From: Hormiphora californensis
Taxonomy: Eukaryota; Animalia; Ctenophora
DNA: 64,000 bases
Direction: 5' to 3'
Assembly: GCA_020137815.1 (NCBI GenBank)
Contig: CM035357.1
Location: 2,046,001 to 2,110,000 of the forward strand
Each line of letters begins with the position of its first letter. Position 1 is the first letter of the stretch. A program made the position numbers and the translations under genes. A model generated the notes under the pieces. It worked only from the letters and a program-made list of their open reading frames with translations. It was not told the origin of the DNA and searched no databases. Below are positions 2,664-63,937 of the stretch, one piece after another.

Positions 2664-5600
2664 CTATGTATCTATCTATCTATGGATAGACGCTATTTTA
2701 CCAAATTTATAATCGTTTTTGAGAGAAAACGACATAAGATAGACACTTCTCGTTTGTTGCATTCGAAAGATAATCGTTTGAATTGTGTAGACGAATAGTT
2801 GTCATGTTCTAGGTCCAATCAGAACGTCTTGACAAACTGTCATAAAGATAAGACATTTTTCAAACCAACCAAATTTCTTTGAGCTCAATTTACACCCTGA
2901 AGACGGTTTTTGATTGAAAAACGGAGACCACACTTATGAAAGATAATCGTCTAAACTTTCAGAAACTATATAGCGAATTTGTGAAACTTTATTTCTAAGG
3001 GTCTCAAATCGCGTCTGAAGTGTTAAGACTGTATGAAAATAGATATGACGATGGTGCGTTTTTCGCCATAGCAACCTCAAATCTTGTCCAATCGATCTCA
3101 AACTTGGTAAGCCTCTTTATATAGATGTGCCTGATAACAATACTTCCTTATCATGACGTTATAACGTCGTGACGTCACGCTATGACGTCAGAATGACGTC
3201 AAAATTGAAAGTTTCTTATTTTAGCGATTCCTGACGGTCTATACACGTTCTGCTACGTCCAGACATGTCTTACATTGTATTTCACATCAGAAAATACCAA
3301 AAATATACCCAATTATGCCAAAAACTAACAGAAATTAGTTGGCTGGAAAGGTGACCACTTTTGTTGTCAAACTGACACCTTTGCCCGGCCCGGGTTACGG
3401 ATATCATCGATGGGGTAAATCAGGGGGTAAATCAGGTAGTTTGAGAAGAGAGAAGGAGAGAGATAGGAAGAAAGAGAGATAGAGAGAGAGAAAAAGAGAG
3501 ATAGAGAGATAGAAATCAGAGAGGGAAAGATTATGATGAAACCCGGAGAGGGCAAAGGTGTCAGTTTGACAACAAAAGTGGTCACCTTTCCAGCCAACTA
3601 ATTTCTGTTAGTTTTTGGCATAATATATATATATATATATATATTTTATATATATAGTATATATAAAATATATAAAAATATATAAAAATACATATGAATA
3701 TATAAAAATATATAAAAATATATAAAAAATATATAAAAATATATAAAAAATTGTGCCGAAAGTGTGAAAACAGAAAGCTGTTTTTCGCCATAGCGGGATC
3801 AAATATCATTCAATTGATCTCAAACTTGGTCAGCATCTTCATCTAGATAATCCTGATGATTTTCCGTCATCAATGTGACGTTTGTAACATCGTGACGTCG
3901 CGTCAATAACGTCATGACGTCAAAATGACGTCAAAAATGATTTGTTTTTTTAGTTTCGCGATCCCAACCTCTCTTCACCAGTTCTAGTACATCTGCACGG
4001 ATCAACATACAAAAAATGATTGAAATCACACCAAAACTGGTAGATATTATTAGGCCGGAACCTCTCTTCACCAGTTCTACTTTTGACAGTGCATAATTCA
4101 CTTTTGAACACATTCTCAATTATGTAAAACAGCTATCACCCTCTCAAACACTTAAATTAACTCTATGAAACATATTCAAGTGAACAATAGATGGAAATAA
4201 TCCCCTTTTTTGAAAGTAAAAGGGGTGAAAAAGGGTTTATTTTATATATTTTTATATATTTTTATATATTTTTATATATTATTTATATAACTTTATATAT
4301 TTTTATATATTTTTATATATTTTTATATATTTTTATATATATATAAAAAATTCCAAAATTAAGGAAATATATAAAAAATTCGTTGGCCCCCCCCCTATAA
4401 AATTGGGTCTTTATAGTCAAATATCGATATGAATCATATTTCCTGTTATTTATTGGGTAATTATCTACAGATATCCGGAGTTTCAGCCCAAACGGTTGAG
4501 CCGTTTGGGATCGCAAGCCACTTTTGTGACCCTTGTTTTTGGTGAAAAATCGGGAAAAAATCGAAAAAAAATTTTTAAATTTTAAAATTTCAAAACACGG
4601 AAATTAGTTCATAGAACATCCCAATACATGTGCAAGACTTTAAAATTGAGTATTCAAAAATTTCAACTTAGCAACCCCTACTGTGCACCCTAGTAGATCT
4701 AGTAGATCTACCCCTTGATTACATACATATTGTGTTCATAACAGATCTACACTGTCCCCAAGGTAATTTTCCAGGGTGTAGAAAGTGAGAGGTTGATCAA
4801 GACTAGACTGGAGAAGGAATAGAAAGACTTGTCCCAGCTTCCCCCCGTTGTTTGAGGGCTTTGAAGCACCCAATCAAGATGGTTTCATTAATCAAGCGCT
4901 TAGCAGTACCTCTCTTCCCACAAACACTCCCTTGGCGTGGTCTTTATGGTCAAATTGTTGTCTCTCTTTCTCTCTCTCACTTTCTCTCTCTCACGTTTTC
5001 TCACTCTCTCTCACTCTCTCTCTTTTTTCTCTCTCTCTTTCTCTCTATCTAGCTCTCCCTGCAATCAGTGACACACGGTTAGATCAGACCAAACCACCCA
5101 GAGACAGAATGAAATGACCAAGACAAAGGAAATGCACAATTATGTCCGTTAAAATAGGCATCTGTAAATTATTCTACACCCCCATGAAATTATAATTACG
5201 TGGCAAATTCTTTATGTAACTTCAGAAAGATAATTATATTCCCCCAAAAAAAGAGAATTGTAAAAAGTATGCAGGGTTTTTTGTTGTGAAAACCGTCAAA
5301 ATGTGATCTCCTGTGCGTTTAGTCAGTCATTTAGTCAGTCATTTAATCATTAATTAGTCATTTGTTTTCAAACCTGGAGCCGACGTTTATAACACGAGGA
5401 AGTGTTCCACATCCGCTCTGAGTGGATGACAGGTCGCTTGCCATCAGTGAGCTATGAACAAGGAGATAGATCAGGGTTATGCGATGGAAGGAGACAATAA
5501 CAAATATATATATTCACTTGAAACAAAATCAATAAAATAATTCATTGCATGATACCCCAGCGCTCGTAAATTCTGAGAATGCAAAACGAGTGTTGATGAC

Positions 5601-5958
5601 ACGTCATAAAATCAGTAAAAGGAAAGAAAACAGGGAAAGAAAATAGGGTTCAGAGAGGCAGGATTTCTGGGAGGAAGGGATGAGCTAAGGATCGTGACCT
5701 GTAACCAAACACTGATCTTATTACCATTTTATGCAACGATTTCTGAAAGCTAAAACCCTGATCGTTAACATAAAGTGGCTGTAAGAAACTTTAAAGCGAA
5801 AGGTGGAAGATATATAACAAGGGCGTCGGCTGAATAAAGGTTAGGACAGGGCCATTGTTAAAATGTGCTTGGTGAAGGGGTGCTTACCTATTGTGGGGGT
5901 CACTAAACACTTGTAGTGTGCACGTGTCACAAAGAGTCGAGGAGAACAAGGGTATATA

Positions 5959-14821: not shown

Positions 14822-19412
<4,591 letters not shown>

Positions 19413-26859: not shown

Positions 26860-29800
26860 ATTGTTGGGAGGCCGAACGAATGTGAGACCATCGACTGGGG
26901 TGGGTCGCTTCAGTAGAGTTTGTACCTCGTTCGCGTAGTTGATTAAATTACCGTTCATCAATACGAAGCCTTTCCCCGTCTAATCTAAGTTTAATTAGGA
27001 AGTCTAATTCATCTCATGTGTAATTAGCAATTGTAATCAAATCTAATTAGTAATTAGCTACAGTCGGACCCCGATTTAGGGCCCCCATTTGTGGCCACCC
27101 CGATTAGGGACAGGATTTTTTTCCCGCCCAGGCGCCGATATAGGAAATAACATTATTTGACCCCGATTAGTGGACACCCCGATTTAGTGGACAAGAGCCT
27201 TTCCCCCGAGGGTGTCCCTAAATCGGGGTCCGACTGTAATTAATTATATGCCCAACAGGTCCAGCAGGCCCGAGTGGGAGACATCTTCGTGGCAGTGAAA
27301 AAGTTCTCCCCCTCTGATCGGAACAGTTTCATCAACGAGCTGATGATCATGTCAGAGAAAAAGGATGTCTATGTGTTGTGTCTGTTAGGGTACCTGCATA
27401 ACGATTCAATTGGGCAACTGTGGATTATCTCCGAGTACTATGCCCTTAGGTATTGAACCTTATTTTCTTTTATCTTTTCTATTTATCTTTTCTCTCTCTA
27501 TCTCTCTATCTTTCTCTCCCCCCTCTCTCCCCTAGTGAGGCATACAAAGTTTCACCATCTTTCTCTCCTTTTTAGGAAACTTGAGTGACTATCTACGGCA
27601 GCACACCCTAACGGTTCGACAGTGTCTTCACATTCTTAGTACCTTCATCAGTGGACTGTGTTTCCTTCACAGTGAACCACAGGTAAGATTGTTACTTTAA
27701 CTAAGGAGTAAGGGAGAGAGAAGTGTGGTGAGATTGTTACTTTAACTAAGGGAGAGAGAAAGCACTGTAGTGAGATTGTTACTTTAACTATAAGGGAGAG
27801 CAGTTTATCCAATCTCACTTCTCACTCTCATTCAGCCGGTGGCCCATAGAGACATCAAATCGCGGAATATTCTGATGGCGGACCACAAGACTGCGAAACT
27901 GGCTGATTTCGGTCTGGCACTTCTCCTGGATTCAGGGCCAGGAGGGGCACTAAACGACAAGGCTGCCCCTCCAACACAAGTTGGCACTGCCCGATACATG
28001 GCACCCGAGGTAATGAAATTCCCTATTATATGGTGATGTTTCATTATGTCCAAATATGGTGTTTTGTAACATATCATGCCCAAATATGGTGTGCTGTAAC
28101 ATATTATGCCCAAATTAGGTTCTGGAGGGATCTATGTTTTACCGGGAGGCCGAGGCGCACATGAGGATTGATGTGTATGCCAGTAGTTTGGTAATGTGGG
28201 AGATCATGTGGAGAACTCAACTCAGTACTGCCGACCAGGTACTCTAGTACGACTCTTTTTTAGGCCACACACTTTCAATTTCCCCATTCCCCTCCTTAAC
28301 CCTTTAAGGGCGAGAAGGATTGGCTCGATAGATTTTTCTAATTTTTCGTTTATAAGTAGATATTATTACCACAAACTACCTCGAAAAAGAAATTTGAAGT
28401 TTCGACATGTAGTTTTTGCTGGGCCCACTGTGTCATATATGACTCTATCGTCCGTAAGGGAATTCTAGTAACAAATGTCATTTGTGCAAAAGTATGGGTC
28501 CAATAGTCAAATTTTATGCTTTGAGGCAGTCTATAGCTATAATTTCTACAATCTTGAACGGTTTTTACTAGAAAAATACCCCAAATTCTACATTTTGTAT
28601 CATATATGACTCTATCGTCCCAATTGGTAAATTCTCCAAAATCATCCATAACTCGGGCTAGAAAAGGAGCTAAGAGTCAAATCAGGGCACTAAACTGTGT
28701 AGAATCATCGCATTAGTGGGGGTAGAGCACATATTTAGGTCGCTATCTTGCCCCCTAATTGAGATAATTGGATAAATAGCCAATTATCTGTCCCGCGCAT
28801 GCTAATAAATGAAACTTTGCTTTGAGAAGGAGTTATGAGGCAAATGGGGGCACTAAAATGTGGAGAATCATCACATTAGTGGGGTTAGAGCACATATTTA
28901 GGTCTCTATCTGGACCCCTAATTGAGATAATTTGATAATTAGCTAATTAGTTGCCCTCCAGCGCTAAAAATTAAATTTGGCGGAGTATACAAGACAAATG
29001 GGGGCACTAAAATGTGTAAAATCGTCGCCTTAGTGGGGGCAGAGCACATAGCTGAGTTTCTATTCCCGCTCCTAATTGAGATAATTGGATAATTAGCTAA
29101 TTGACGGTTGCATAATGCCCCCTTTTCACCATATACCGTGGTTTCTGGCTAATCCTGAGCTCTTTTGTTCAATCTAAGGATCTTTTGGCATCCCTTTACC
29201 CCATTTGTATCACCTTTGACTCGTTTTACACAATAATATAGCACTCTATACTACCCTAGACGCCGACTTCAGCTCTGTACAACCCCCTTGCTTCATCCTA
29301 CCCCTAGCTAGACCTCTCATACACCATACTAAACGCCTTCTACAGATCTTCTTTATTTCCGATGGAGTTCATGAGAAGTTTTCTTAGTGGCAAATGAGAT
29401 TGTGAGAGTGATGAGGAGAAATTATGTAGGAGGAATCTAAACTGTGTGTCCAATAATAAAATGGGAAACTGTAGTACATTAGGGGTTGAACGTCTTGTAG
29501 GAGCAATAGGATATCCCAAAAAAAATCGGCTAGGAAGGTGTATGGATCTCGAAATTATGAGAGGTCTAGGATTAAGCAAGAGGGTTCTAAAGAGCTGAAG
29601 GCGGTGTCTAGGGTTGTATAGAGTGCTATATTAGTGTGTAAAACGAGTCAAAGGTGATACAAATGGGTAAAGGGATGCTAGAAGGGCCTTAGATTGAACA
29701 AAAGAGCTCAGGATTAGCCAGAAACCACGGTTTACGGTGAAAAGGGGGCATTATGCAACCGTCAATTAGCTAATTATCCAGTTATCTCAATTAGGAGCGG

Positions 29801-31059
29801 GAATAGAAACTCAGCTATGTGCTCTGCCTCTACTAAGGCGACGATTTTACACATTTTAGTGCCCCTATTTGTCTTGTATACTCCGCCAAATTTAATTTTT
29901 AGCGCTGGAGGGCAACTAATTAGCTAATTATCCAATTATCTCAATTAGGGGTCCAGATAGAGACCTAAATATGTGCTCTAACCCCACTAATGTGATGATT
30001 CTACACATTTTATTGCCCCCATTTGCCTCATAACTCCTTCTCAAAGCAAAGTTTCATTTATTAGCATGCGCGGGACAGATAATTGGCTAATTATCCAATT
30101 ATCTCAATTAGGGGGCAAGATAGCGACCTAAATATGTGCTCTACCCCCACTAATGCGATGATTCTACACAGTTTAGTGCCCTGATTTGACTCTTAGCTCC
30201 TTTTCTAGCCCGAGTTATGGATGTTTTTGGAGAATTTACCAGTTGGGACGATAGAGTCATATATGATACAAAATGTAGAATTTGGGGTATTTTTCTAGTA
30301 AAAACCGTTCAAGATTGTAGAAATTATAGCTATAGACTGCCTCAAAGCATAAAATTTGACTATTGGACCCATGCTTTTGCACAAATGACATTTGTTACTA
30401 GAATTCCCTTACGGACGATAGAGTCATATATGATACAACGACTAAAACGTTAATAACTCATTCAATTTTCAATATTTTTTGATGCGGTTTTTTGCATTCG
30501 ATTTGTTATGTCAAGTAGTTTTATCCCTTCAAAGGATTATTTGTGCCCCTCAAAAGCAAAAATTTGAGAGGGGTTTTTAAAAAAAGGCCTAAATTAGCCT
30601 CCCGAGAAGGGCCATAAAAAAATTTCTTTGATTTTCCGAGCAGATTTGGACGTGGTTTTGGGTTCAAAATCCCTAAAACTAGCTTGTGACAAAAAATTAG
30701 CCACCTAGACATCATGTAGCGCCTTCCAGACGGTCTAGAATGGACCGTGTCATATATGACCTATCGCCCTCAAAGGGTTAACCCCAACACCTGTCCCACA
30801 ACCCCGTCCCTCCCCTCACTCTCCCTCTAACCTCTCTCCACTCTCTCCCACCCTCACCCTCTCCCACCTCTCTCTCCCCCTCACCCCTCCCTCACAGGTG
30901 GAGCAGTACATGTTACCATTTGAGAGGCTGATCCCTGGCCACCCCACACCATGCGATATGCAGGGTATCGTTGTCACGGAAAAGAGGCGGCCCGAACTAA
31001 GGAAGGCATGGGTGAATGACCCCATCTTTAGTAAACTAGAGGTAATTTAAATACACTCA

Positions 31060-33988: not shown

Positions 33989-36900
33989 ATGGTAACTTAC
34001 CTTGACCCCCTGGATATCAGATACACCCAAGACTCGATAGCATGCAGGTTAGTTAGCAGCCTATTTGGTGCACGTTTTACCAGGATGCTCGGGGGGGGGG
34101 GGGGGGGGGGGGGGGGTAAATCGGGGTTCCCAGTATATCGGGGTCAAATACCGTTAATTTCCTTTATCGAGGGAAATGCATCTCGTAAATCGAACTCTGA
34201 CTTTACAATCTATTGTAAAGTCAGAGTTCGATTTACGAGGTGCATTTCCCTCGATAAAGGAAATTAACGGTTATTATGGACAAATGGGGGGGGGGGGGGA
34301 CATGTTAATTGTTAATAAATCACCTCTTTTTTCCGATTTTGTTAATTAACGTTAATTAACAAAATTAACAAAATTAACAAATGCTAAAACATTGGTGTTA
34401 TCGGTTGATAATACGACTTTAACTGATTTAATTTTGTAGTTTAATAACTTATCTAACGTTTGTATACCCATGCAAGGCCTCCTCCCATAACCAAAGTCCA
34501 ACATACAAGTTTTTTGGCTCCAAATAGATCAAAATTTAAAGAGTACGAAATTTCAATTTAGCGTGTAAAATGTCACTTGAATGTAATTTTTTCATTGATA
34601 ATCCATTCTTCAGACGAAAGAAAGTGATGTACAACGTTTCTGTTTGAAAAATACGAAAAAATTCCCAAAATTGCTTTTTTTGGTCAAAAATTGAAAATTT
34701 GCTTCGCTACAAATCCTTGTGTTTTTTTAGAAAAAATTATTTTTGGGATATTTTTCGATTGAAGGTAAATTTATGAGTCTTATTAAGTTTTTAAAGTTGG
34801 AAAATGTGGATTAGTGTCATTTGACCTCAATTGCGGTTCAGGTTGGCTAGTTTTTGTTCGAATTTACAAAATGGAACAAATCGTTGTGGGAAGGCTGTAG
34901 TAGACGGCAGTAGTATAGTGTGGACCGCTCGCACCTGATTCTGTGACGTGGCGGGGCACCAAGTCACGTGACCAACACGTGACGTCACATGGTATCACGT
35001 GACCTGAATACTCTGCTGCTATTGGACGGTTGGTTGTCACGTGACACATCACATGACCAATCACGTACATCACGTGATTTATCATGTGCCAAGTCACGTG
35101 ACCAACACGTGACGTGACATGGTATCACGTGACTGTAGGCACGTGATGATCATGTGACCCATGTATGGTGAGCCATGTTATAACCATATATGGTCAATTT
35201 TTCCGTGCCATGTTATGTCCATATTTGGTCAATTTGTGATGGATGATCATTTGAAAATATCCAATATATCATTCGTGATTATCAATGATCATTCATGATT
35301 ATGAGTGATCATTCGATAGTCATTTTTATAAGACGCAAAAGGGAGACTCTATTGTAGGGGAAGTGAAATATTACAACAATAGCATTACACATCGGCCTCA
35401 CTTTCTTGTTCATCACCACTCTCATCCTCAGATGTCTCACTATCGAATTCCTGATCAGTCACATTTTCAATAGGGTCTTGAGATTTTCTCGGATTGTTAA
35501 AGACCAAACTAGGAAACCTATTTTTCGTAAACTTAACAATTAGTTTAATTGCTGATTCCAAGTTTTTGTCGTAAACATCAATGAGCTTCGTTTCGTTGTA
35601 GACAATTTCCCTTATACTATCCCTTGCTGGAAGAAGTTGTATCTTTTCTTCTGGGGTTAAAACTATCTCTCCATCAAGAACTGCTTTCATCATTAACTTT
35701 ATTAAACCTTGATTGTTAGCAAAATCTGATTTGTAATCAGAGCGGTGAAAGCGACTTTTATGCGTAGCTAAGCTATGCTTGGAAGAAAATGTTCGATCAC
35801 AATGAAAACACTCCATGGTTCATGATTGTGAGTGATCATAATGTCTATATATATATAGGGGGATAGAGAGATTCATTAAATCTCACAATAGCAAATATTA
35901 TAATCATGCGTGTCAGTTATACAGAAGCTACACCCGACCCTGAAGTTTATCGTCAAGCATTAGGAAGGGATCTCGGAGTTTATTCGAATCAAACGGGTGC
36001 GGGATTGGGCGGATTCTTAAAGAAAATTTTTAAATCGGTGATACCAATTGGAAAAACGATACTGAAACAGGGCTTTGAGTTAGCGAAACCTGGTCTCCAA
36101 GATGCTGGAAATCAACTTGTTGGCGCTGCAAGCAACTATGCAGTAAATAAAATTGAATCTGGAGCCAAAAGAATAATTGACAATGTTGGTAAAAGGAAAG
36201 TTGACCAACTCTCTTAAAACGTATCTCCTATAAAAGGGAATATGTTATCTCTGTAGCTAACCATGTCAAAGTACATCAAGTCTGCCGAAGGGTTTCCTTC
36301 GCAACTTCACCTTTGGGATCCCCAACCAACACAAGGAGTAATTGAGGAAACGAAATGGGTGGACATTTATCCTACTAACTCCCTCGAGAACTCTGATGAG
36401 ATTTCGTTTACCATTCCATCTATGGAGCGGTATATGCTGGAAAATGTTGAAATATTCACAGAACTGCGGGTACTTACAGAGAGTAGAGCTAATCCACCGG
36501 CCAAACAAAATGTTTCCACATCACCTCATCTTGCGGCCAGCTTGTGGAGAAATGTTGAGGTTTATGCTGGCGGGGTTTCTTTAACCCAATCTTATGACAA
36601 CTCCTACTCCATGTTCAAGTTTTGGGATGATGTAATTCATAATAATCATGATTCCCGAGCACTACTAAAGCGTCTTGAGGGATTAGATCTTGATTCTGTG
36701 GGTGATAAGACAGATAGTGAAAACTTGGAGTTTTATCCAGCTACAGGGAGTCCTAAAAATGTAAATGGTCAAGAAAGGGCAAAAGTTATTGAAAAGGTAA
36801 AACTGTCTATTTGAGGTCAGATCTAAACATTCCTCTATTCAAACAAGGAAAACTTCTTCCTACTGAAGTAACATTTCAAATTAAGCTGACGAAAAACTAC

Positions 36901-39900
36901 TCCGGGTTTATCCTTCTAGCTGCAGACACTAATACCGATGAAGTTTATTTTGACAAGGTATTCTTAAGATGTACTTTTCAAAGACCTCGGGATACTGTGC
37001 TTAGTATAATTGAAGAGCGACTTGCAAAAGAAAATGCCATCTATCATGCTGACAAAAAAGTTATGAATATTTTTCCAGTGACGGATCGTTCCACCACAAT
37101 ACAGCTCGAAAACCTTATCAATGGTCCTTTACCATACTTCTTCCTTGTATGTGTACAAGACAGAAGCGCCCTAGGAAGAAAGAGGAGTAAAAACCCGTTT
37201 TCACTGAATCTGGTAAAAACAGCTCAGCTGTATGTAAATGGAAAAGAACATTTCCCACGAGCTTTAGAAATTACAGATCATCTTGAGACCAACATGATGG
37301 CAGAGTTTGTAAACGGAACTGGTAGTAAGGGAGACTCTATGGTCATGCACCATTACAGGGTGTATCCAGCCTTGGCATTTGATCTCACGCAAGATAAAAC
37401 ACAAAATCAGCATGGCCTCAACTTGATGCAAAGTGGAACTGTTAGATTGTCCATGGAAATGTTGCGACAACCAACTGAGGATCTAGTAGTGATGGTACTC
37501 GCTTGGTACGAACAAGTTATTGAAGTGAATAAAAATAGACAATTTTTCATTATTTGAAAGTTTAGCATGTTCTTATTTTTAAAGTCACATGAAAACTGGT
37601 GTTTACCTTCGTTCTTTTGTCACCCTAAAATGATCACCAACGATCATTTTACTATAAAAACAATGCTCTCACTGGTAGTTTTAACCATGTACCTTATCGC
37701 TACTAGCCATAAACAAAACCCCAGTCAATTTGTCTTTCGTTCGGAGAATGCTTTAGACTTGAATGGCAACTATGAGGTGGCTGTAAAAAGTGTTAGTCAC
37801 GCTCCTTCATCTACATTTAATGTAACAGAGGGTAACAATCATTTTTTGGTATCCGAAAAGGGACATGATTATGAATCCAGAGATTACTCAATTCCACCTG
37901 GGTGTTATCGAAACGGAGCACAGTTGCTGCTAGCAATGCAACAGGCTATAAGCTCCAAAGAAACGGAAAATCTGGCGAATGGTTCTGATCATTGGCCTAT
38001 CCCAGAGTACTTTGCAGATGAAACAACACATGTATGTACACTGGCGTATCATCATTCCAGTAAAGGATTTGCAACGAGTGAAAATAGTGTTTTGAGGTTT
38101 TTTAAGATTTACATGGAAAACAGTCCATTGCACCTTTTACCATCAAAAATTGCGGCTAAAATAGAAGACTTTCCGAGGCATGCAAAACTTGGACATATAT
38201 ATTCAAACATTGTACCACAAGCACACACGGACTATAGACAAAGAAATGAACATGACTCGAGATTTTTCGCTATGTTCCCATTCGAACAAAAATTGGGATA
38301 CAATCATTATGAATTTGTAAACCCTTCTTATTTCAAAGTGAGATTTGTCTATTTGAGCGAAATACAGTTTGTGATTTGTGACAATATGGGTAATCTTTTT
38401 GAGTTTTCAGAAGATGATACGAGAGATTTCCCTACGTCGATGGTTTTGCATTTTCGTAAAGTTAGATGAACAGTTAATTCATAATTTTAGTTTCTTTTGG
38501 AATACATAAATTGGTTGTTATCCTTATGACTGTGTAGTGAAAACACCTGGTACACCTTAAACGCATTTAACACCTCTCTTGTCTAGTGTATCTCCCCCTC
38601 TCTCTCCCTCCCTTTTTCTCTCTCTCTCTCACCCATCAATAACGAATGATCATTGATAATCACGAATGATATATTGGATATTTTCAAATGATCATCCATC
38701 ACAAATTGCCCATATATGGTCATAACATGGCACGGACAAATTGACCATATATGGTCATAACATGGCTCACCATACATGGGTCACATGATCATCACGTGCC
38801 TACAGTCACGTGATACCATGTCACGTCACGTGTTGGTCACGTGACTTGGCACATGATAAATCACGTGATGCACGTGATTGGTCATGTGATGTGTCACGTG
38901 ACAACCAACCGTCCAATAGCAGCAGAGTATTCAGGTCACGTGATACCATGTGACGTCACGTGTTGGTCACGTGACTTGGTGCCCCGCCACGTCACAGAAT
39001 CAGGTGCGAGCGGTCCACACTATACTACTGACGGCTTGTGGGTATGCAAATCATGCAGAAGGAACATCTTTGTTCGCAGAACAACATGCAGCATGTGTAA
39101 TACCAAAAAACACATGCTAAAGGGACTTTAGATGGTATAAATGGCATTTGTTAATGTTTGTTAACTTTTGTTAATTATGTTAATAAATCACCTGTTTTTT
39201 CGATGTTAATATTAACAAAGTTAACAAAATTAACATGTCCCCCCCCCCCCGGACAAATGATTAATCATTTGTCCATAACTCGGTCACTATTTTCTCACCA
39301 GATTCCAGACTGGGGAGTTGTTGGAAGATGTTCTAAATGACTATATCAACAACTACAACAGAAGGAAACCTCGGAAAAAGTCACAGAAATGCCTACGTCG
39401 TCCAATGGGGGTATGTACAATTCCGTTTAAATGCCTCTAGCTCTTATAGGTAAAATCATTTTCCCCAATCATATTTCATGAGTCCTTTTTTTCCTCTCAT
39501 TTCCTAGATCTCATTTCCTAGATCTCATTTCCTAGATCTCATTTCCTAGATCTAATCTCCTAGTTCTTATTTTCTTATCGCCTGATTTTCTTCGTTGTTT
39601 AGGTAGTCTACAATAGTGACTACAACGCATGGTGCAGCTTAGACAACAGACGGCTTTATATTTGGAAAGAGCTGAAGGAAATGGGTTATGTAGATCGAGT
39701 GAAAGTAGAGGATCTCTCAGACAATGTCATGGTAAGTTTTTTAACATGAAGATCAATATGAAACCTTGTCAAGCCTTCCGAAGTATTTTCGCTGACAATA
39801 GTTTGACCTAGGGTCCTCAAGCTCAAAGTAGATCTCGGGCGCAACTTCCTAATAGTGGTCGGACCATCAGAGTTAGATCTGACTCGTATGTGGAACGCGA

Positions 39901-43833: not shown

Positions 43834-46653
43834 ATGCTGATTCGTCTTAACCCTGCGGATATACGATACACGCAGGATTCTATCTCACGCAGGTAACGCT
43901 TTGTGTGGCTCACACTGTAATTCGTGAGGGTTCGGTAGATCAAAGTAGACTCTATTGAAAAGTGATTGAGTGGAATAAATTGTCTCATCAGGAGTATTGT
44001 AATGGGTGGGTTTCTAATAACCAACTAAAATGTTTCCCCGCAGGTTTCAAAATGGCGAATACCTGCACGATGTACTGGATAACCTAAGAGATGGGTATCT
44101 GAATGTGCACGATTTTCCACCAATATCGGTGAGTGAAAACAACCGTAGTAATCCTCCAACCATGACAACTCCTCCGTTAAAATTACATGACAACTCCTCC
44201 ATTACCATGACAACTCTTGACTCCATACTCAGGTAGTTTATGAGGAGGGGTCCTGGTGGAGCCTTGATAATCGGAGATTGTTTGTATTTAAAACCCTAGC
44301 AGAAGAGGGATTAGTTGATAAAATCCAAGTGAAAGATAAAGGGGTATGTGAGTACATTCAGTGTAGAACTTTTCATTTTGTTTGGAGTTTAAGACAGTAA
44401 AACTTTTCCTTTAAAAAAAGTTTTCTGACATGTTTAATTCGTGTTTTCATCTCCCAGACGAAAGGGTTGACATCCTGGAGGTCGAGCCGTTCCTCAAAGA
44501 TAGACGGATTCGACATCAGAGTCCGGGGAGGTGTCAAGAGACCTCGTGCTGATGAAGATGATGCGTATGAACCACTACCACCACCTCCGAAACGAACATG
44601 TCTTCAGCCACTCCTGTCGAAAAACAGGCCTGTTAACTATGATAACAGCAGGGGTAACTATGATAACATCAGGGGTAACCATGAGAACAGCCGGGGTAAC
44701 CATGATAATAGCTGGGGTAACCATGATAATAGCTGGGGTAACCATAAAAACAGCAAGGGTAACCATGGCAACAGCAGTAGGGGTTTGCAGGTGACAATTC
44801 GTACTGCTGCAGAGGAGGAAGGAATATCAGAAGGAGATAACATCAGGGTGGATGCGATCCTAAATTCAGTCAACAAAGCACTAAACCTGAAAGTCAGTAT
44901 TACAAATCCTGCTTCACTGGGAAGATTTGATCGTCTACATGATTCAAGAAATGGCAGTCACGAGACTAACCTTGGTAACCGGTCTAACATCCTCAGTCGT
45001 AACCTTGGCAACAAGTCTAACAACCTCAGCTGTAACCTTGGTAACAAATCTAACAACCAAGGGGACCCTTCTTCAAAGAATGGGAGTAACGACAGTGGGT
45101 ACGGTAGTTCAGATTTCATGGCACGTACAGGTTATTCAAAAGATAGCAGAACCTCTCTGAGAGACTCTGGATCGGCATACTTTAGACTTGGAGGTAGTAG
45201 GCCCGTGACAGGGTCCAATAACCCGAACACTAGAATGAGGAAAGATAGTTATGATCTCTTACTACCCCCAGACGATCAGAAGTCCAGTGAAAACCTTGAG
45301 AATGTCCCACCTCTTGAGGCTAATCAGAGAAACAATTCTGGCACTGCAACGAATAGGATAACTGCTGGAAACTCTCAGGCAACAGGAAAAGAAATTCTCC
45401 AAAAATACCAGAACTCTCAAAGGAATCGGGTCATCAGAGTTCAGAAAAAGATATTTACCGGCTCTAAACCAAAGAAAGAAAATGAAAATCCTATTCCAAC
45501 CAAAGCCACATGTACAGTAACCGTGCCTAAGGTATTACCTTGCTCGACCTTTAAGAAAAATAAAATCTCACCCCCTGTCGGTAATACACAAAAGGAAGGC
45601 TTGGTGTATGGAAAAGATGAATTCTACTCGGCTGAATTTGTTCCCCTGGTTACCAGTACTCCAGTAAAGTTACCGAGCAAGGTAGGACAACAACCGTTAT
45701 ACACACTGGACTACACTGGAATGGTTCCACAATCCTCAACTGCAGCAAAGCCAATAATACCGACCTTCAGCTCAATCGAAGCAACTCGCTCCAATTCCAT
45801 GGAAACAACTCCCTCACGTGGGACACGTGATAGTTCCCTCTCTTACAGGTCGCCCTGTCGTTTCCGTGGAAACAACCTTAGCTGTAACCTTGGAAACATG
45901 ACTGAAAACCTCAGCGATCTCTCGCCTCCCTTCTACTGGGCCTCAAAAGATCAGAATTCCCCGAAAACTGGCCGACCCCCGTGGAGAAGAGAGAATCACA
46001 GTGGCCGAGAGAATCACAGTGGGTTAAAGTTCAGGAGTAGGGTTGGAAGGAGCCCATTGCAGCCTAGTTATAGGACAAAGTCGTCCAATAGTTGGCAAGA
46101 AGAAGGTAAAAGGGAATCTTCCAAGAGTAGAACAGATGATCATGAGATAATAAACATCGATGACAGTTCGGATGAGGCAGATGTTTTGAGTTCTGACGAT
46201 GATTCTCACTGTAGTAGTAAATATGGTTGTCAGGGTACCTGTTGCTATAGGAACGGTGGTTACCATGGTAACAGGAGTTGGAAGCAAGATGATCAGAGAA
46301 CCCGTGAAACAAAGAAGGGGGACAGTTTGGCATCCAAATTGGATGATGTTTTGGAATCAGCTGCCTGGAAGGATATTGAGTTTGATGTTTTAGAGAATAC
46401 CTCAGGCGAATGCCGTGGGTCACCTCTTGAGGACCTGTACGTAGTTTCAACTCCAGTGAAACCACCACTGAACATGACAGCACAGGATACAGTTGCAACC
46501 CCAGTTAAAACACCTGCACTAAATACAACAACTGACATCGTTGTAATTAGCTCGCCTACTATAATTGATGAATATAAATGTAATGAGACGCCACTCTACG
46601 ATAACATTTCATCTGATGAGGAGGAGGGGAGCCGGGCCAATGGGTGGCGCTGA
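43834..46653 (+). CDS. ParB/sulfiredoxin-like domain protein, paralog 3 (exons 43834-43892, 44044-44128, 44233-44343, 44458-46653); ~730-aa disordered Ser/Asn-rich tail with NLS-like motifs
   Basis: LNPADIRYTQDSISRR|FQNGEYLHDVLDNLRDGYLNVHDFPPIS|VVYEEGSWWSLDNRRLFVFKTL...GFDIRVRG; KRPR and PPKR basic motifs. Confidence 0.85.
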
Positions 46654-47160
46654 ATTATTGGCCCCGGGCCAATGGGTGGCGCTGAATTATCGAGTCTCCA
46701 TTTAATCGAGTCTCCATTTAATTATCTAGTGTGTATCATTTTTTATCGGACGATTACTTTTTTAAATTTGTAGTGATGAATAAATTCTACTCACTATTTG
46801 TATTCTTTATTCAACTATATTACATCCCATTATCATGATTATTAGTCTAATTAACAATGTAATTTTGGCGCCATTTTAGTTCAGTCGACCAGTTTGACTC
46901 GAACCTCGATTTTCCAGACGAATAATTATGTGAAATGAAACCAAAGCCGTGTACCGTGTATTTATCCTTCCCCAAAGAGTCCAGTAAAACGAGGTTTAAT
47001 GTATTGTTTAACTTAACGGACTTTGATAATTATATTTAGTTAGTTTATGTTCATCGGGTTAGAGTTTAGACCCTTTTCTACTCATTGGCTTTTTTAACGA
47101 ATCAACTAATTTATTATACTTTTTTTACCATATACAATTAATTAAACTAATTTACTACTA

Positions 47161-48802
47161 CAGTCGGACCCCGATTTAGGGACACCCTCGGGGGAAAGGG
47201 TCTTGTCCACTAAATCGGGGTGTCCACTAAATCGGGGTGAGCCATATTTGGCCCATAAAAACCTATTTTATGCCCAAAATTCTATATTATTAAGACTAAA
47301 GACACCTCTAACTGTTATCTGCAATATTCATGTATTGATGACATCATCATTTCTGATTAGAAATAGAAAAATATAAGATAGTTTTTTTTTCAAAAAAATT
47401 TGAAAATTTTTCTAAGTTATACCGTGTGGGGCAATAAAAATGCCCCCCCCCCCCCCCCCCCCCCAAGTCTACCATAGTTCCAGACATCGTGGAGCGCTAA
47501 AATTTGGCACAGTAACTCTATGAGACAAATAAATAACTTGACGAAAATTTCATACCTCTAGCTCAAAATTCATTTTTTTGATAGGAATGAACATTGTCAT
47601 TCATTCCAAGAAAAATATATTTTCGGTCCAGAATTCAAGCAATTATCTTTGGCTATCGATTAGCTTTCCAATGTGACCAAGATCATCTAAATTGGACAAC
47701 CACAAGAGACACAGTGTCATGTTTCTTAAAGTTAGTCAGGTCATGTGATCCTCACCGAATCGTTGATTATCCGGGATTGCTAATCCAGCCAATGGGCAAA
47801 GGAATCTCGTATCACGGCCGCTAATGAGGTATGCGTATCAATACAGGGTAATGTGATTCGAGGAAAGAGGACATTTATCAAAGAGCTACAGATCTCATGA
47901 CCAATCAGCATCGTCATCCCTCATTAGTAGCCGTGATACGTGATTCTCTACCACTTAGACCGATTCGTAATACTGAATACTCAACGATTCGGTGAGGATC
48001 ACATGACCTGACTAACTTTAAGAAACATGACACTGTGTCTCTTGTGGTTGTCCAATTTAGATGATCTTGGTCACATTGGAAAGCTAATCGATAGCCAAAG
48101 ATAATTGCTTGAATTCTGGACCGAAAATATATTTTTCTTGGAATGAATGACATTCCTGGTAGACTTGGGGGGGGGGGGGCATTTTTATTGCCCCACACGG
48201 TACCAGCCCGGCCGATTTGTGTTTCGAGTCGGTGCAGCTTACTGGATGTCCTGTCTAATTAGCGGATTCGAAACGAACCGATACGTGATACCATGCCGAA
48301 TCGGGGCACCCTAAGCGGGTGAGAAAGTATCAAAATTTCAAAATAACTTTTTCTCTCAAAATTTATGGGGAGCACCGATCAAAGCATTGAGAATCGTACT
48401 GTAAAATTTTGCAAAAAAGTTTTAAATTTTTTTAAAGGTATACCAGCCACGTGCGAATCGTGTTTCGAATCGGTGCATCTTATCGCATGTCCTGCTGCTA
48501 ATTAGACGGTTCGGAACGAATCGAAACGTGATCCCCATCGAATCGAAATTTTGACACTTGGTGAACTTGTTATTCAATGGCCCCATGGGGATCACGTATC
48601 GGTTGGTTCCGAACCGTCTGATTAGCAGCAGGACATGCGATAAGATTCACTGATTCGAAACACGATTCGGACGTGGCTGGTATCTTTTTGAAAAATTTTC
48701 AAAAAAAATTCACAAAAAATTTCACAAAAAAAATTCAAAAAATGTTTGGGGGAAAAAAATCCTGTCCCTAAATCGGGGTGCCACTAAATCGGGGTCCGAC
48801 TG
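47161..48802. mobile_element. CAGTCGGACCCCG-family MITE with a nested TA-flanked foldback element (47422-48200)
   Basis: Outer TIR CAGTCGGACCCCGATTTAG with TA; inner TIR CCGTGTGGGGCAATAAAAATGCCCC with TA. Confidence 0.8.
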
Positions 48803-48874
48803 TACAATTAATTAAACTAACTAACTACTTAACTCTAGGCTAAATTCCAACCATAAATCGTTTTTGATTTAGCA

Positions 48875-50100
48875 ATGATCATGAGATAATAAACATCGAT
48901 GACAGTTCGGATGAGGCAGATGTTTTGAGTTCTGACGATGATTCTCACTGTAGTAGTAAATATGGTTGTCAGGGTACCTGTTGCTATAGGAACGGTGGTT
49001 ACCATGGTAACAGGAGTTGGAAGCAAGATGATCAGAGAACCCGTGAAACAAAGAAGGGGGACAGTTTGGCATCCAAATTGGATAATGTTTTGGAATCAGC
49101 TGCCTGGAAGGATATTGAGTTTGATGTTTCTGAGAATACCTCAGGCGAATGCCGTGGGTCACCTCTTGAGGACCTGAACACAGTTTCAACTCCAGTGAAA
49201 CCACCGCTGAACACAGCAAATGATACTGGTGCAACGCCAGTTAAAACACCTGCACTAAATACAACAACTGACATCGTTTCAATTAGCTCGCCTACTATAA
49301 TTGATGAATATACCAGCAATGAGACGCCATTCTACGATAACATTTCGTCTGATGAGGAGGAGGGGAGCCGGGCCAATGGGTGGCGCTGAATTATTGGAGC
49401 CGGGCCAATGGGTGGCGCTGAATTATTGGAGCCGGGCCAATGGGTGGCGCTGAATTATTGGAGCCGGGCCAATGGGTGGCGCTGAACTATTGGAGCCGGG
49501 CCAATGGGTGGCGCTAAAATGTTTTAATATGGACTGGGTCACATATCGCTGAGTTATATCGAGTCTCCATTATCTAGTGTGTATCCGTTTTTAACTTTTT
49601 TTGGTAGGACAATTATTTTTAAAAGTTTGTAGTGATGAGTGAATTCTACTCGCTATTGACTATTTGTATTCTTTATTCAACAATATTATATCTCATTATT
49701 AATATAATTATTATCGCTATGAATGACATTATTACATATATTTTGGCGCCATTTTAGTACAGTCGAACGGTGCGGTAAGAATCGAACCTCGATTTACCGG
49801 ACCCTCGATTTACCGGAAGGATAATTATTACCCTATTTAGAATTTTATGTGAAATGAAGCCACAACCATGTACCGTGATATGATAACGTATTGTATTTAG
49901 CCTTCCCCAGACGAGTCCGGTAAATCGAGGATTGAATGTATTTTTTAATTTAATGATCTGTAACTTAGTTAGTTAATGTTCATCGGGTTATATAATATAG
50001 TTTAGACCCTTTTTCTACTCAATGGCTTTTTAACGAATCAACTAATTTATTATACTTTTTACCATTATATACAATTAATTAAACTAATTTCTAATTTCTA
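48875..50100 (+). pseudogene. Partial tandem duplicate of the 3' end and 3' flank of paralog 3
   Basis: 48875-49389 closely matches 46136-46653 (SSDDDSHCSSKYGCQG...SRANGWR*); downstream flank also matches 46653-47160. Confidence 0.8.
49366..49515 (+). repeat. ~31-bp minisatellite (about 5 copies) spanning the stop codon
   Basis: GAGCCGGGCCAATGGGTGGCGCTGAATTATTG repeated; 2 copies at 46630-46690. Confidence 0.9.
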
Positions 50101-55040: not shown

Positions 55041-55869
55041 GGGGGGGGGGGCGACATGTTAATTGTTAATAAATCACCTCTTTTTTTCGATTTTGTTAAT
55101 TAACGTTAATTAACAAAATTAACAAAGTTAACAAATCAGCAAAGACTGTTCTTATTGGTTGATAATGCGACTTTAACTGGTTTAATTTTATAGTTTAATG
55201 ACTTTTCTAATAAATATATACCCAAACAAGGCCTCTTCCGATAACCAAAGTCCGACATACAGGTTTTTTTGGCTCAAAATCGATAAAAATCCAAGTTACA
55301 AATATTTCAATTTAGCGTATAAAATCTCACTTTAACGTAATTTCTTCATTGATAATCGATTCTTTGGACGAAAGGAGATGATGTACAACGTTTCTGTTGG
55401 AAAAAGAACCAAAATATTACCAAAATCAATTTTTTGGTCAAAAATTGAAAATTTTCTTCGCTACAAATCCTTGTGTTTTTTTAGAAAAATTAATTTTTGG
55501 GATATTTTTTTGTTTTAAGGTAAATTCATGAGTTTTTTTTTTAGTTTTTAGGGTTGAAAATGTGGATTAGAGTCAATTGACTTCAATTGCGGTTTAGTTT
55601 GGCTAGTTTTTATTAAAATTTACATAATGGAATAAATCGCTGTAGAAAATCCGTAGTAGAGGTAGTAGGGATGTGCAAATCGTGCAGAAGGAACAGCTTT
55701 GCTCGCAGAACAAGTGTTTAATACAAACAACACGCGCTAAAGGTGATTTAGATGGCATAAATGGCATTTGTTAACGTTTGTTAACTTTTTGTTAATTTTG
55801 TTAATAAATCACCTGTTTTTTGGATGTTAATATTAACAAAGTTAACAAAATTAACATGTCGCACCCCCC
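55041..55869. mobile_element. Poly-G/poly-C-ended MITE, empty-site relative of 34286-39250
   Basis: Same termini and body; 8-bp TSD ATTACGTA. Confidence 0.88.
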
Positions 55870-63150: not shown

Positions 63151-63937
63151 GGGGGGGGCGACATGTTAATTGTTAATAAATCACCTCTTTTTTTCGATTT
63201 TGTTAATTAACGTTAATTAACAAAATTAACAAAGTTAACAAATCAGCAAAAACTGTTCTTATTGGTTGATAATACGACTTTAACTGGTTTAATTTTATAG
63301 TTTAATGACTTTTCTAACACATATAAACCCAAACAAGGCCTCTTCCGATAACCAAAGTCCGACATACATGTTTTTTGGCTCAAAATCGATAAAATCCAAA
63401 AGTTACAAATATTTCAATTTAGCGTATAAAATCTCACTTTAACGTGATTTTTTCATCGATAATCGATTCTTTGAACGAAAGAAGATGATGTACAACGTTT
63501 CTGTCGGAAAAAGAAACAAAATATTTCCAAAATCAATTTTTGGTCAAAAATTGAAATTTTGCTTCGCTACAAATCCTTGTGTTTTTTTAGAAAAATTGAT
63601 TTTTGGGATATTTTTGTTTTATGGTAAATTCATGAGTCTCAATTAGTTTTTAGGGTTTAAAAAAGGTGGATTAGGGTCAATTGACTTCGATTGCGGTTTA
63701 GTTTGGCTAGTTTTTATTAAAATTTACACAATGGAACAAATCGCTGTAGAAAAGCCGTAGTATAGGTTAGTAGGAGTGTGCAAATCGTGCAAAAGGAACA
63801 ACTTTGCTCGCAGAACAAGTGTTAAATACCAAAAACACGTGCTAAAGGTGATTTAGATGGCATAAATGGCATTTGTTAACGTTTGTTAACTTTTTGTTAA
63901 TTTTGTTAATAAATCACCTGTTTTCTCGATGTTAATA
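63151..63937. mobile_element. Third copy of the poly-G-ended MITE, interrupted near its right end by a CAGTCGGACCCCG MITE running off the window
   Basis: High similarity to 55041-55869; TA|CAGTCGGACCCCG begins at ~63938. Confidence 0.8.

What the first reader, a model, noticed from the sequence alone, without database searches (positions are those of the whole stretch)
34909..39029. Capsid-only mini-Polinton: a 4.1-kb integrated virus-like element with virion genes but no replication or integration machinery
Seen: intact ends (AGTAGT...ACTACT), 386-bp TIRs about 98% identical, a perfect 6-bp TSD GACGGC, and four compact intronless ORFs filling the interior: a ZnF protein (-), a small Gly-motif protein, a major capsid and a penton (+). 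Empty sites are visible in sister MITEs at ~55650 and ~63760, so the 4.1-kb unit is a precise insertion. Established: Polintons/Mavericks are typically 15-20 kb or more, make 6-bp TSDs through a retroviral-like integrase, and encode protein-primed PolB, integrase, packaging ATPase and cysteine protease. All four are absent here, with no recognisable remnants. Inference: this is either a satellite that supplies its own capsid and borrows enzymes from a helper Polinton (conceptually like capsid-forming phage satellites), or the structural segment of a segmented/multipartite Polinton-like virus whose segments share TIRs. Clean retention of just the structural module with its promoters argues against random decay.
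Basis: partly seen in the sequence, partly recalled or inferred. Interest (0 to 1): 0.95.

Follow-up and report, generated by a model that had tools for sequence, protein, structure and literature searches.

The report
Capsid-only satellite Polinton in comb jelly
A 4.1-kb virus-like insertion, in what is likely a sea-gooseberry (Pleurobrachia) genome, carries only capsid-module genes between inverted repeats and likely spreads by borrowing copying, integrating, packaging and maturation enzymes from a larger Polinton, which would make it a capsid-making satellite of an animal DNA virus.

Summary
The element is real: 34909-39029, 392-nt TIRs (98%), 6-bp TSD, with empty target sites. Models fold as a double-jelly-roll capsid (an intact homologue, 94% identical to the window's C-terminal piece) and a penton. 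One correction: the window's capsid gene is frameshifted, though it is open in four other runs. The host is likely Pleurobrachia. It does not look like single-locus decay. The same gene order occurs in three samples under two organism labels at about 3-4 times flank depth. The penton sits where canonical relatives have the protease (15 of 16 loci). The capsid belongs to a subclade (64-89% identity) under strong purifying selection, whose 30 recorded contigs never exceed 4.9 kb. Segmentation with shared TIRs is disfavoured in run X1 (TIR:interior depth 2.1:1), but X5 has a large unexplained TIR excess. A sister capsid lineage (about 58%) likely travels with an ATPase, a candidate helper. Best reading: a helper-dependent, capsid-encoding Polinton satellite (0.55). 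Rivals: genome segment (0.2) and young deletion family (0.2). No genome was available, so the helper, particles and other insertion sites are unseen.

The parts
34903..34908 (+). left target-site duplication GACGGC
   Evidence: a single copy at empty sites in X3 and X5 contigs
34909..35300 (+). left TIR, 392 nt, starts AGTAGT; internal 45-nt repeat; 9 CACGTG boxes; the outer 255 nt folds strongly as ssDNA (z -5.3)
35385..35816 (-). 143-aa ORF: N-terminal C2H2 zinc finger, a middle part weakly like the 107-aa protein between ATPase and penton in relatives, acidic tail
   Evidence: Pfam zf-C2H2 E 0.002-0.02, below the curated cut-offs; profile E 0.008; hhalign probability 12%
35906..36217 (+). 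103-aa Gly-motif protein (QTGAGLGG), homologue of the gene just upstream of the capsid gene in canonical Polintons; likely a protease-processed internal virion protein (recalled: pX-like)
   Evidence: 40-49% identity to 12 relatives; hits in 19 of 27 loci
36263..37557 (+). double-jelly-roll major capsid gene; in this copy the frame shifts near 36790-36810 (pieces 36263-36814 and 36793-37557)
   Evidence: the intact homologue P0001 folds at pLDDT 87 and matches PBCV-1, iridovirus, Sputnik and mavirus capsids, E 1e-17 to 1e-13
37567..38469 (+). penton (single jelly roll); likely start 37687, 34 nt after TATAAAA at 37653
   Evidence: model pLDDT 81; best matches mavirus penton E 8e-10, then adenovirus and Sputnik pentons; 26-30% identity to 13 canonical pentons
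38638..39029 (-). right TIR, ends ACTACT
39030..39035 (+). right target-site duplication GACGGC
34287..34908 (.). left part of the host MITE into which the element inserted
   Evidence: 85% identity to 55041-55660 and 63151-63762
39030..39248 (.). right part of the host MITE
   Evidence: 85-87% identity to 55674-55869 and 63776-63937

Best explanation
The element is a 4.1-kb TIR-bounded insertion with a 6-bp TSD that encodes only Polinton capsid-module proteins, and it likely belongs to an old helper-dependent satellite lineage that would use the polymerase, integrase, packaging ATPase and protease of a larger co-resident Polinton while making its own capsid. Shown: ends, TSD, empty sites, both folds, absence of the enzymes, a rearranged gene order, and the same order in other samples. 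Untested: the helper's protein-primed PolB would copy the element from its TIRs, the helper's integrase would insert it with the 6-bp duplication, and its own capsid and penton would package it with the helper's ATPase and protease. The window copy is a decaying member with a frameshifted capsid gene.
For: (1) Contigs bridge ZnF-Gly (X1, X3, X7), Gly-capsid (X1, X7) and capsid-penton (X1, X3). Depth is about 3.4, 4.1 and 3.9 times unique flanks in X1, X3 and X7, with cover in 30 of 30 bins in all 4 runs; X1 and X3 are one sample. (2) Order differs from canonical: a protease follows the capsid gene in 15 of 16 relative loci holding its 3' end, and the penton lies before the Gly gene in 18 of 19 loci with that gene. 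The exception, L001, is a clade member with only 40 nt left and no ATG. P. bachei model P0078 joins capsid and penton in the window's order. (3) The capsid sits in a 10-row subclade (support 90; inner 8 rows 100) spanning 64-89% identity. Its 30 contig figures top out at 4,857; 0 of 16 over 3 kb exceed 5 kb, against 21 of 40 in control clusters. Six figures (2,833-4,436) recur in the penton cluster. (4) Window versus L001: pN 0.13, pS 0.73-0.79, dN/dS 0.05 or lower. (5) X1 terminal TIR contig depth is 545 against interior 256-262, a ratio of 2.1. (6) P. bachei has a Polinton ATPase (P0344). Its 92% relative P0341 and sister-clade capsid P0151 share the figure 5,548. The ATPase tree has one shallow Pleurobrachia clade (87-92%) matching the sister capsids (76-83% between clusters) and no branch matching the short subclade, in 108 of 174 hits.
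Against: No genome was held: the helper, its TIR, and other insertion sites with their TSDs were not seen. PolB and integrase in Pleurobrachia were not searched. The tool warns that contig depth is not copy number. No listed contig bridges TIR to interior by 31 letters on both sides, or penton to right TIR (tables cut, CT repeat). The contig-length contrast is biased: 5 of the 10 control clusters were picked for long representatives and members are not independent. At representative level it is 0 of 7 versus 21 of 63, p 0.07. Canonical elements also often break just after the protease. L001, used for dN/dS, is not shown to be a short element. In X5 the outer ~255 nt of the TIR is about 20-50 times deeper than the interior, and in X1 one contig of depth 302 touches the inner TIR and runs on unlike the window. 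No evidence of particles or expression.
Confidence: 0.55

Rival explanations
1. The unit is the capsid segment of a divided (multipartite) Polinton genome; PolB, integrase and the other enzymes lie on other small TIR-bounded segments.
For: 0 of 43 contig figures in the wider 16-row clade exceed 6 kb, and three cluster at 5,824-5,953; at representative level 0 of 12 versus 17 of 58, p 0.025. X5 has a large excess of outer TIR and 54 contigs running over the ends. Strong selection on the capsid is easy to explain if no other capsid exists. Segments with shared TIRs are known in PolB-bearing bidna-like viruses (PMC8363768 passages).
Against: In X1 the TIR:interior ratio of 2.1 leaves no room for equimolar partners with the same terminus. 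The sister lineage seems to carry its own capsid beside the ATPase. A 5.5-6 kb contig also fits the integrase-to-protease block of an ordinary element (L012 layout).
Confidence: 0.2
2. It is a young non-autonomous family made by deletion from an unseen, already rearranged full-length parent. The capsid genes hitchhike, and their conservation was accumulated in the parent.
For: The window copy is decaying (frameshift; 11 differences in 1,314 nt against X1). Non-autonomous Polinton derivatives are known (recalled). The contig-length evidence is indirect, and 54 ATPase hits were not listed.
Against: Ten contigs of the 94% cluster never exceed 4,436 nt, and capsid and penton likely share six of them. 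The TIR budget in X1 and the ATPase tree leave little room for a near-identical parent. The order is shared across two organism labels and the P. bachei model.
Confidence: 0.2
3. Single-locus decay of a full Polinton after insertion, or an assembly collapse.
For: The frameshift and private differences show decay of this copy; no single read across the element was seen.
Against: The same interior junctions appear in contigs of other samples at several-fold depth, and the gene order cannot arise by one deletion of the canonical order.
Confidence: 0.04

Closest known systems
Polintons/Mavericks (polintoviruses, adintoviruses)
   Same: TIRs, 6-bp TSD and AG...CT-type ends (ends and TSD length recalled); double-jelly-roll capsid, penton and the Gly-motif gene, at about 53%, 31% and 45% identity to canonical metagenome relatives.
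   Different: 4.1 kb instead of 15-25 kb (PMC6431247); no PolB, integrase, ATPase or protease; penton moved behind the capsid gene. The known loss runs the other way: nine elements lacking the capsid also lacked protease and ATPase (PMC4028283).
Non-autonomous Polinton derivatives (recalled from the Repbase literature)
   Same: Keep TIRs and TSD and are mobilised in trans.
   Different: As recalled they are non-coding or random deletion products; this one keeps a structural module under purifying selection in its own diverged lineage.
Ca_PLV1 / AHEV_PLV1 (PMC11296320)
   Same: A capsid-encoding element integrated without a detectable integrase, possibly relying on one in trans.
   Different: Their sizes and full gene sets were not read here. 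PLVs have a core of capsid, penton and ATPase (10.1101/2022.07.28.501842); the ATPase is missing here.
Capsid-forming phage satellites, cf-PICIs (recalled)
   Same: Analogy only: own capsid, borrowed helper functions.
   Different: Bacterial, HK97 fold, and they keep their own integrase and packaging genes; no homology.
Vesanto virus and segmented bidnaviruses (PMC8363768, PMC11071296)
   Same: Small TIR-bounded segments, some with structural genes only.
   Different: ssDNA with a parvovirus-type capsid; no 6-bp-TSD integration of segments in the passages read.

Membership tests
Polinton/adintovirus (autonomous) | protein-primed PolB gene | tested here: not met
   all interior ORFs accounted for; tblastn with a relative's PolB exon finds nothing
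Polinton/adintovirus (autonomous) | retroviral-like (rve) integrase gene | tested here: not met
   L012 integrase (rve E 2e-11) finds no remnant
Polinton/adintovirus (autonomous) | packaging ATPase and cysteine protease genes | tested here: not met
   four queries, no hit better than E 2
Polinton/adintovirus (autonomous) | double-jelly-roll capsid and penton | tested here: met
   (on homologue P0001)
Polinton/adintovirus (autonomous) | long TIRs and 6-bp TSD | tested here: met
Polinton-like virus (PLV) | core of capsid, penton and ATPase | tested here: not met
   ATPase absent; definition from the passage
Non-autonomous Polinton | several insertions with different TSDs | tested here: inconclusive
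   depth 3-4 times flanks and 54 contigs over the ends in X5 suggest it; no second flank was read
Non-autonomous Polinton | TIR shared with an autonomous partner | not testable with these tools
   no genome; related TIR variants exist in X1 at depth 145 and 53 with unknown interiors
Capsid-forming satellite | own capsid maintained under selection in the short form | tested here: inconclusive
   dN/dS 0.05 or lower against L001, whose full structure is unknown; contig ceiling 4.9 kb
Capsid-forming satellite | particles containing the short genome; helper dependence | not testable with these tools
   needs particles or long reads
Multipartite virus segment | complementary segments with shared termini | tested here: inconclusive
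   disfavoured in X1 (ratio 2.1), open in X5 (TIR excess)

The most novel reading that the evidence does not exclude
The Pleurobrachia Polinton lineage has split its genome: capsid genes travel on 4-6 kb TIR-bounded units that integrate on their own and are packaged in particles, and the TIR excess in X5 reflects partner segments. This would be a multipartite, integrating double-jelly-roll virus of animals.
Probability: 0.2. Interest if true: 0.9.

Novelty: new variant of a known kind. Interest (0 to 1): 0.68.

Why it matters
Whether animal Polintons make particles is mostly inferred from gene content. A unit that has dropped every enzyme but keeps capsid and penton under selection would be hard to explain unless particles matter for its spread. 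It would be a Polinton-on-Polinton parasite of a kind my ten literature searches did not find. It may have been overlooked because at least one survey removed elements under 10 kb as incomplete (PMC4028283). It also gives a compact, testable target in an early-branching animal: a 4-kb protected DNA in comb-jelly particles.

Tried and rejected
No own genome was held. Viral contigs gave no relative with P0001 or alignment A2 and no exact match to the 19-nt terminus; the phage collection gave nothing. Pfam found no family for the capsid pieces, penton or Gly protein. PDB sequence searches gave only a TnsC match (E 8e-4, 87 positions), rejected after the fold search, and nothing for the penton. 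The Atlas search for the ZnF ORF was below the recognition threshold and showed only zinc fingers; direct BLASTP to the 107-aa protein was not significant. The relatives' protease label rests on conserved H/D/Q/C motifs and position, not on a database hit. The careful capsid tree did not finish; the quick tree is used, leaving out P0032, P0038 and P0075-77 as short. The VIA wide search of the penton was not collected. Earlier-findings look-ups returned nothing. None is used as evidence of habitat or expression. Programmed frameshifting was rejected because other copies are simply open.
Full report
Observation. The element spans 34909-39029, starts AGTAGT and ends ACTACT, and is flanked by GACGGC on both sides. 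The TIRs are 392 nt with 8 mismatches. It sits in a MITE whose two sisters in the window are continuous across the site. Contigs of runs X3 and X5 skip the element exactly, with six letters fitting both sides. Six enzyme queries from relatives (integrase, two ATPases, two proteases, one PolB exon) found no remnant; the best E-value in the window was 0.77. One correction: the capsid gene is in two frames (36263-36814 and 36793-37557). Contigs of all 4 runs laid differ from the window at this point, and database proteins P0001 and P0078 are open through it. The window copy also has private substitutions (11 in 1,314 nt against X1). It is therefore a decaying copy, or less likely carries assembly errors.

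Proteins. P0001 is an intact 431-aa protein, 92% and 94% identical to the two window pieces. Folded with 61 sequences, it gave pLDDT 87 and matched PBCV-1, iridovirus, Sputnik, faustovirus and mavirus capsids (E 1e-17 to 1e-13). A profile search gave 4,302 relatives among 1.84 billion proteins, and the Atlas placed it near double-jelly-roll clusters. The window's penton model (pLDDT 81) matched mavirus, adenovirus and Sputnik pentons (best E 8e-10). The Gly-motif protein is 40-49% identical to the gene before the capsid in 12 relatives; its role as a processed internal protein is recalled, not tested. The ZnF ORF has sub-threshold C2H2 hits and a weak match to the 107-aa protein that follows the ATPase in relatives (E 0.008; probability 12%).

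Host. No genome was held. A Pleurobrachia bachei gene model (P0078) is 98%, 96% and 91% identical to the two capsid pieces and the penton, and joins capsid to penton in the window's order. Five more P. bachei capsid models, two penton models and one ATPase model turned up. The labels of P0012, P0015, P0139, P0140 and P0344 are 'sb/' numbers of the form that carries the P. bachei accession. The host is thus likely a Pleurobrachia comb jelly.

Not a one-locus deletion. The metagenome scan gave 27 loci. A protease-like gene follows the capsid in 15 of 16 loci that hold its 3' end. The penton precedes the Gly gene in 18 of 19 loci with that gene. L006 and L012 show integrase-ATPase-107aa-penton-Gly-capsid, and L010 adds PolB. 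The window has ZnF(-)-Gly-capsid-penton, which one deletion cannot produce. Contigs bridge ZnF-Gly in X1, X3 and X7, Gly-capsid in X1 and X7, and capsid-penton in X1 and X3. Interior depth is about 3.4, 4.1 and 3.9 times unique flanks. These runs cover three samples and two organism labels. Limits: depth is a rough guide only, and no listed contig bridges TIR to interior or penton to right TIR by the tool's 31-letter rule.

A lineage of its own. In a quick tree of 87 rows the window capsid falls in a 16-row clade (support 99, stem 0.44) that excludes all 13 canonical-order loci in the tree. It splits into a 10-row subclade (90) holding the window and a 6-row sister (100). Identity is 64-89% within the subclade and 55-61% to the sister. 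The window-type pentons form their own clade (100/100). Against L001, pN is 0.13 and pS 0.73-0.79 over 174 and 248 codons, giving dN/dS of 0.05 or lower; L001's full structure is unknown. The 30 contig figures of the subclade's seven clusters top out at 4,857 nt; 0 of 16 over 3 kb exceed 5 kb, against 21 of 40 in controls. That control is biased: five of ten clusters were picked for long representatives and members are not independent. The unbiased count is 0 of 7 versus 21 of 63 (p 0.07). Six figures recur between the closest capsid cluster and the penton cluster (15 of 21 members listed).

Helper or partner. In X1 the terminal TIR contig has depth 545 against 256-262 for capsid contigs, a ratio of 2.1: nearly all identical termini belong to capsid elements. 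ATPase P0341, 92% identical to the P. bachei model, shares the contig figure 5,548 with sister capsid P0151. Six other such figure pairs behave consistently, and one corresponds to L006, which holds both genes. The ATPase tree (108 of 174 hits; 54 unlisted, 12 near-duplicates dropped) has one shallow Pleurobrachia clade with stem 0.45 and no branch matching the short subclade. This points to a sister Polinton with its own capsid and ATPase as candidate helper; PolB and integrase in the host were not searched. Against this reading: no contig of the wider clade exceeds 6 kb (0 of 43). In X5 the outer TIR is about 20-50 times deeper than the interior, with 54 contigs over the ends. In X1 a contig of depth 302 leaves the inner TIR for unknown sequence. 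Segmentation therefore stays open.

Mechanism. The TIR ends and TSD are the cis signals for Polinton integrase and protein-primed PolB (recalled), and both enzymes must come in trans (inference from absence). Retention of capsid, penton and Gly genes under selection is best explained if the element makes its own shell and borrows ATPase and protease (inferred; no particle or expression data). Odds: satellite 0.55, segment 0.2, young deletion family 0.2, single-locus decay or artefact 0.04.

Literature. Ten searches of an open-access library found no capsid-only, segmented or ctenophore Polinton paper; subscription papers, Repbase Reports and supplements were not seen and may list such elements. 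I read term-matched passages only of PMC4028283, PMC6431247, PMC8502044, PMC11071296, PMC11296320, PMC8363768, 10.1101/2022.07.28.501842 (94), 10.1101/2025.02.07.637071 (41) and PMC12859917. They give: Polintons at 15-25 kb; loss of the capsid module as the described reduction; elements under 10 kb discarded in one survey; an integrated PLV without integrase; and segmented bidna-like viruses with shared TIRs. Non-autonomous Polintons and cf-PICIs are recalled.

Verdict. A real, probably multi-copy, rearranged capsid-only Polinton derivative that fails membership as an autonomous Polinton or PLV but works like a non-autonomous one with its own virion genes. New variant of a known kind; interest 0.68.

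Noticed in passing
window 34909-35163 in run X5: The outer ~255 nt of the TIR has summed depth of about 53,000-159,000 against 1,400-2,900 for the inner TIR; X1 shows no such step. Possibly a burst of TIR-only elements, other interiors, or free DNA.
   Followed up: partly
window 35284-35314 in run X1: One contig of depth 302 touches the inner TIR and runs on unlike the window except for two short matches; TIR variants at depth 145 and 53 also occur.
   Followed up: no
window ~35294 and ~35822: A ~20-nt motif at the inner TIR end recurs just upstream of the ZnF ORF; TATA-like boxes precede each ORF (35846/35857, 36229, 37653).
   Followed up: no
L010 2702-5740 (-): PolB-like motifs are spread over several short frames, apparently an intron-interrupted polymerase in a canonical relative.
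   Followed up: no
L007 454-2078: Two tandem penton genes upstream of the Gly gene.
   Followed up: no
P0054 cluster: Mnemiopsis leidyi has many annotated copies of a related capsid (51% to P0001); models P0113 and P0117 fuse other sequence upstream of it.
   Followed up: no
window 28429-30437, 15100-16210, 47595-48152: Other TIR-bounded elements (773-nt, 183-nt and 191-nt arms) without AGTAGT ends.
   Followed up: no
window 44401-46690 and 48868-49426: A 750-aa low-complexity ORF whose 3' part is duplicated 2.7 kb downstream at 91-99%.
   Followed up: no
window 34206-39263 in run X5: One contig seems to skip the whole MITE plus element (side 23 letters, weak), hinting that this locus is polymorphic.
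   Followed up: no
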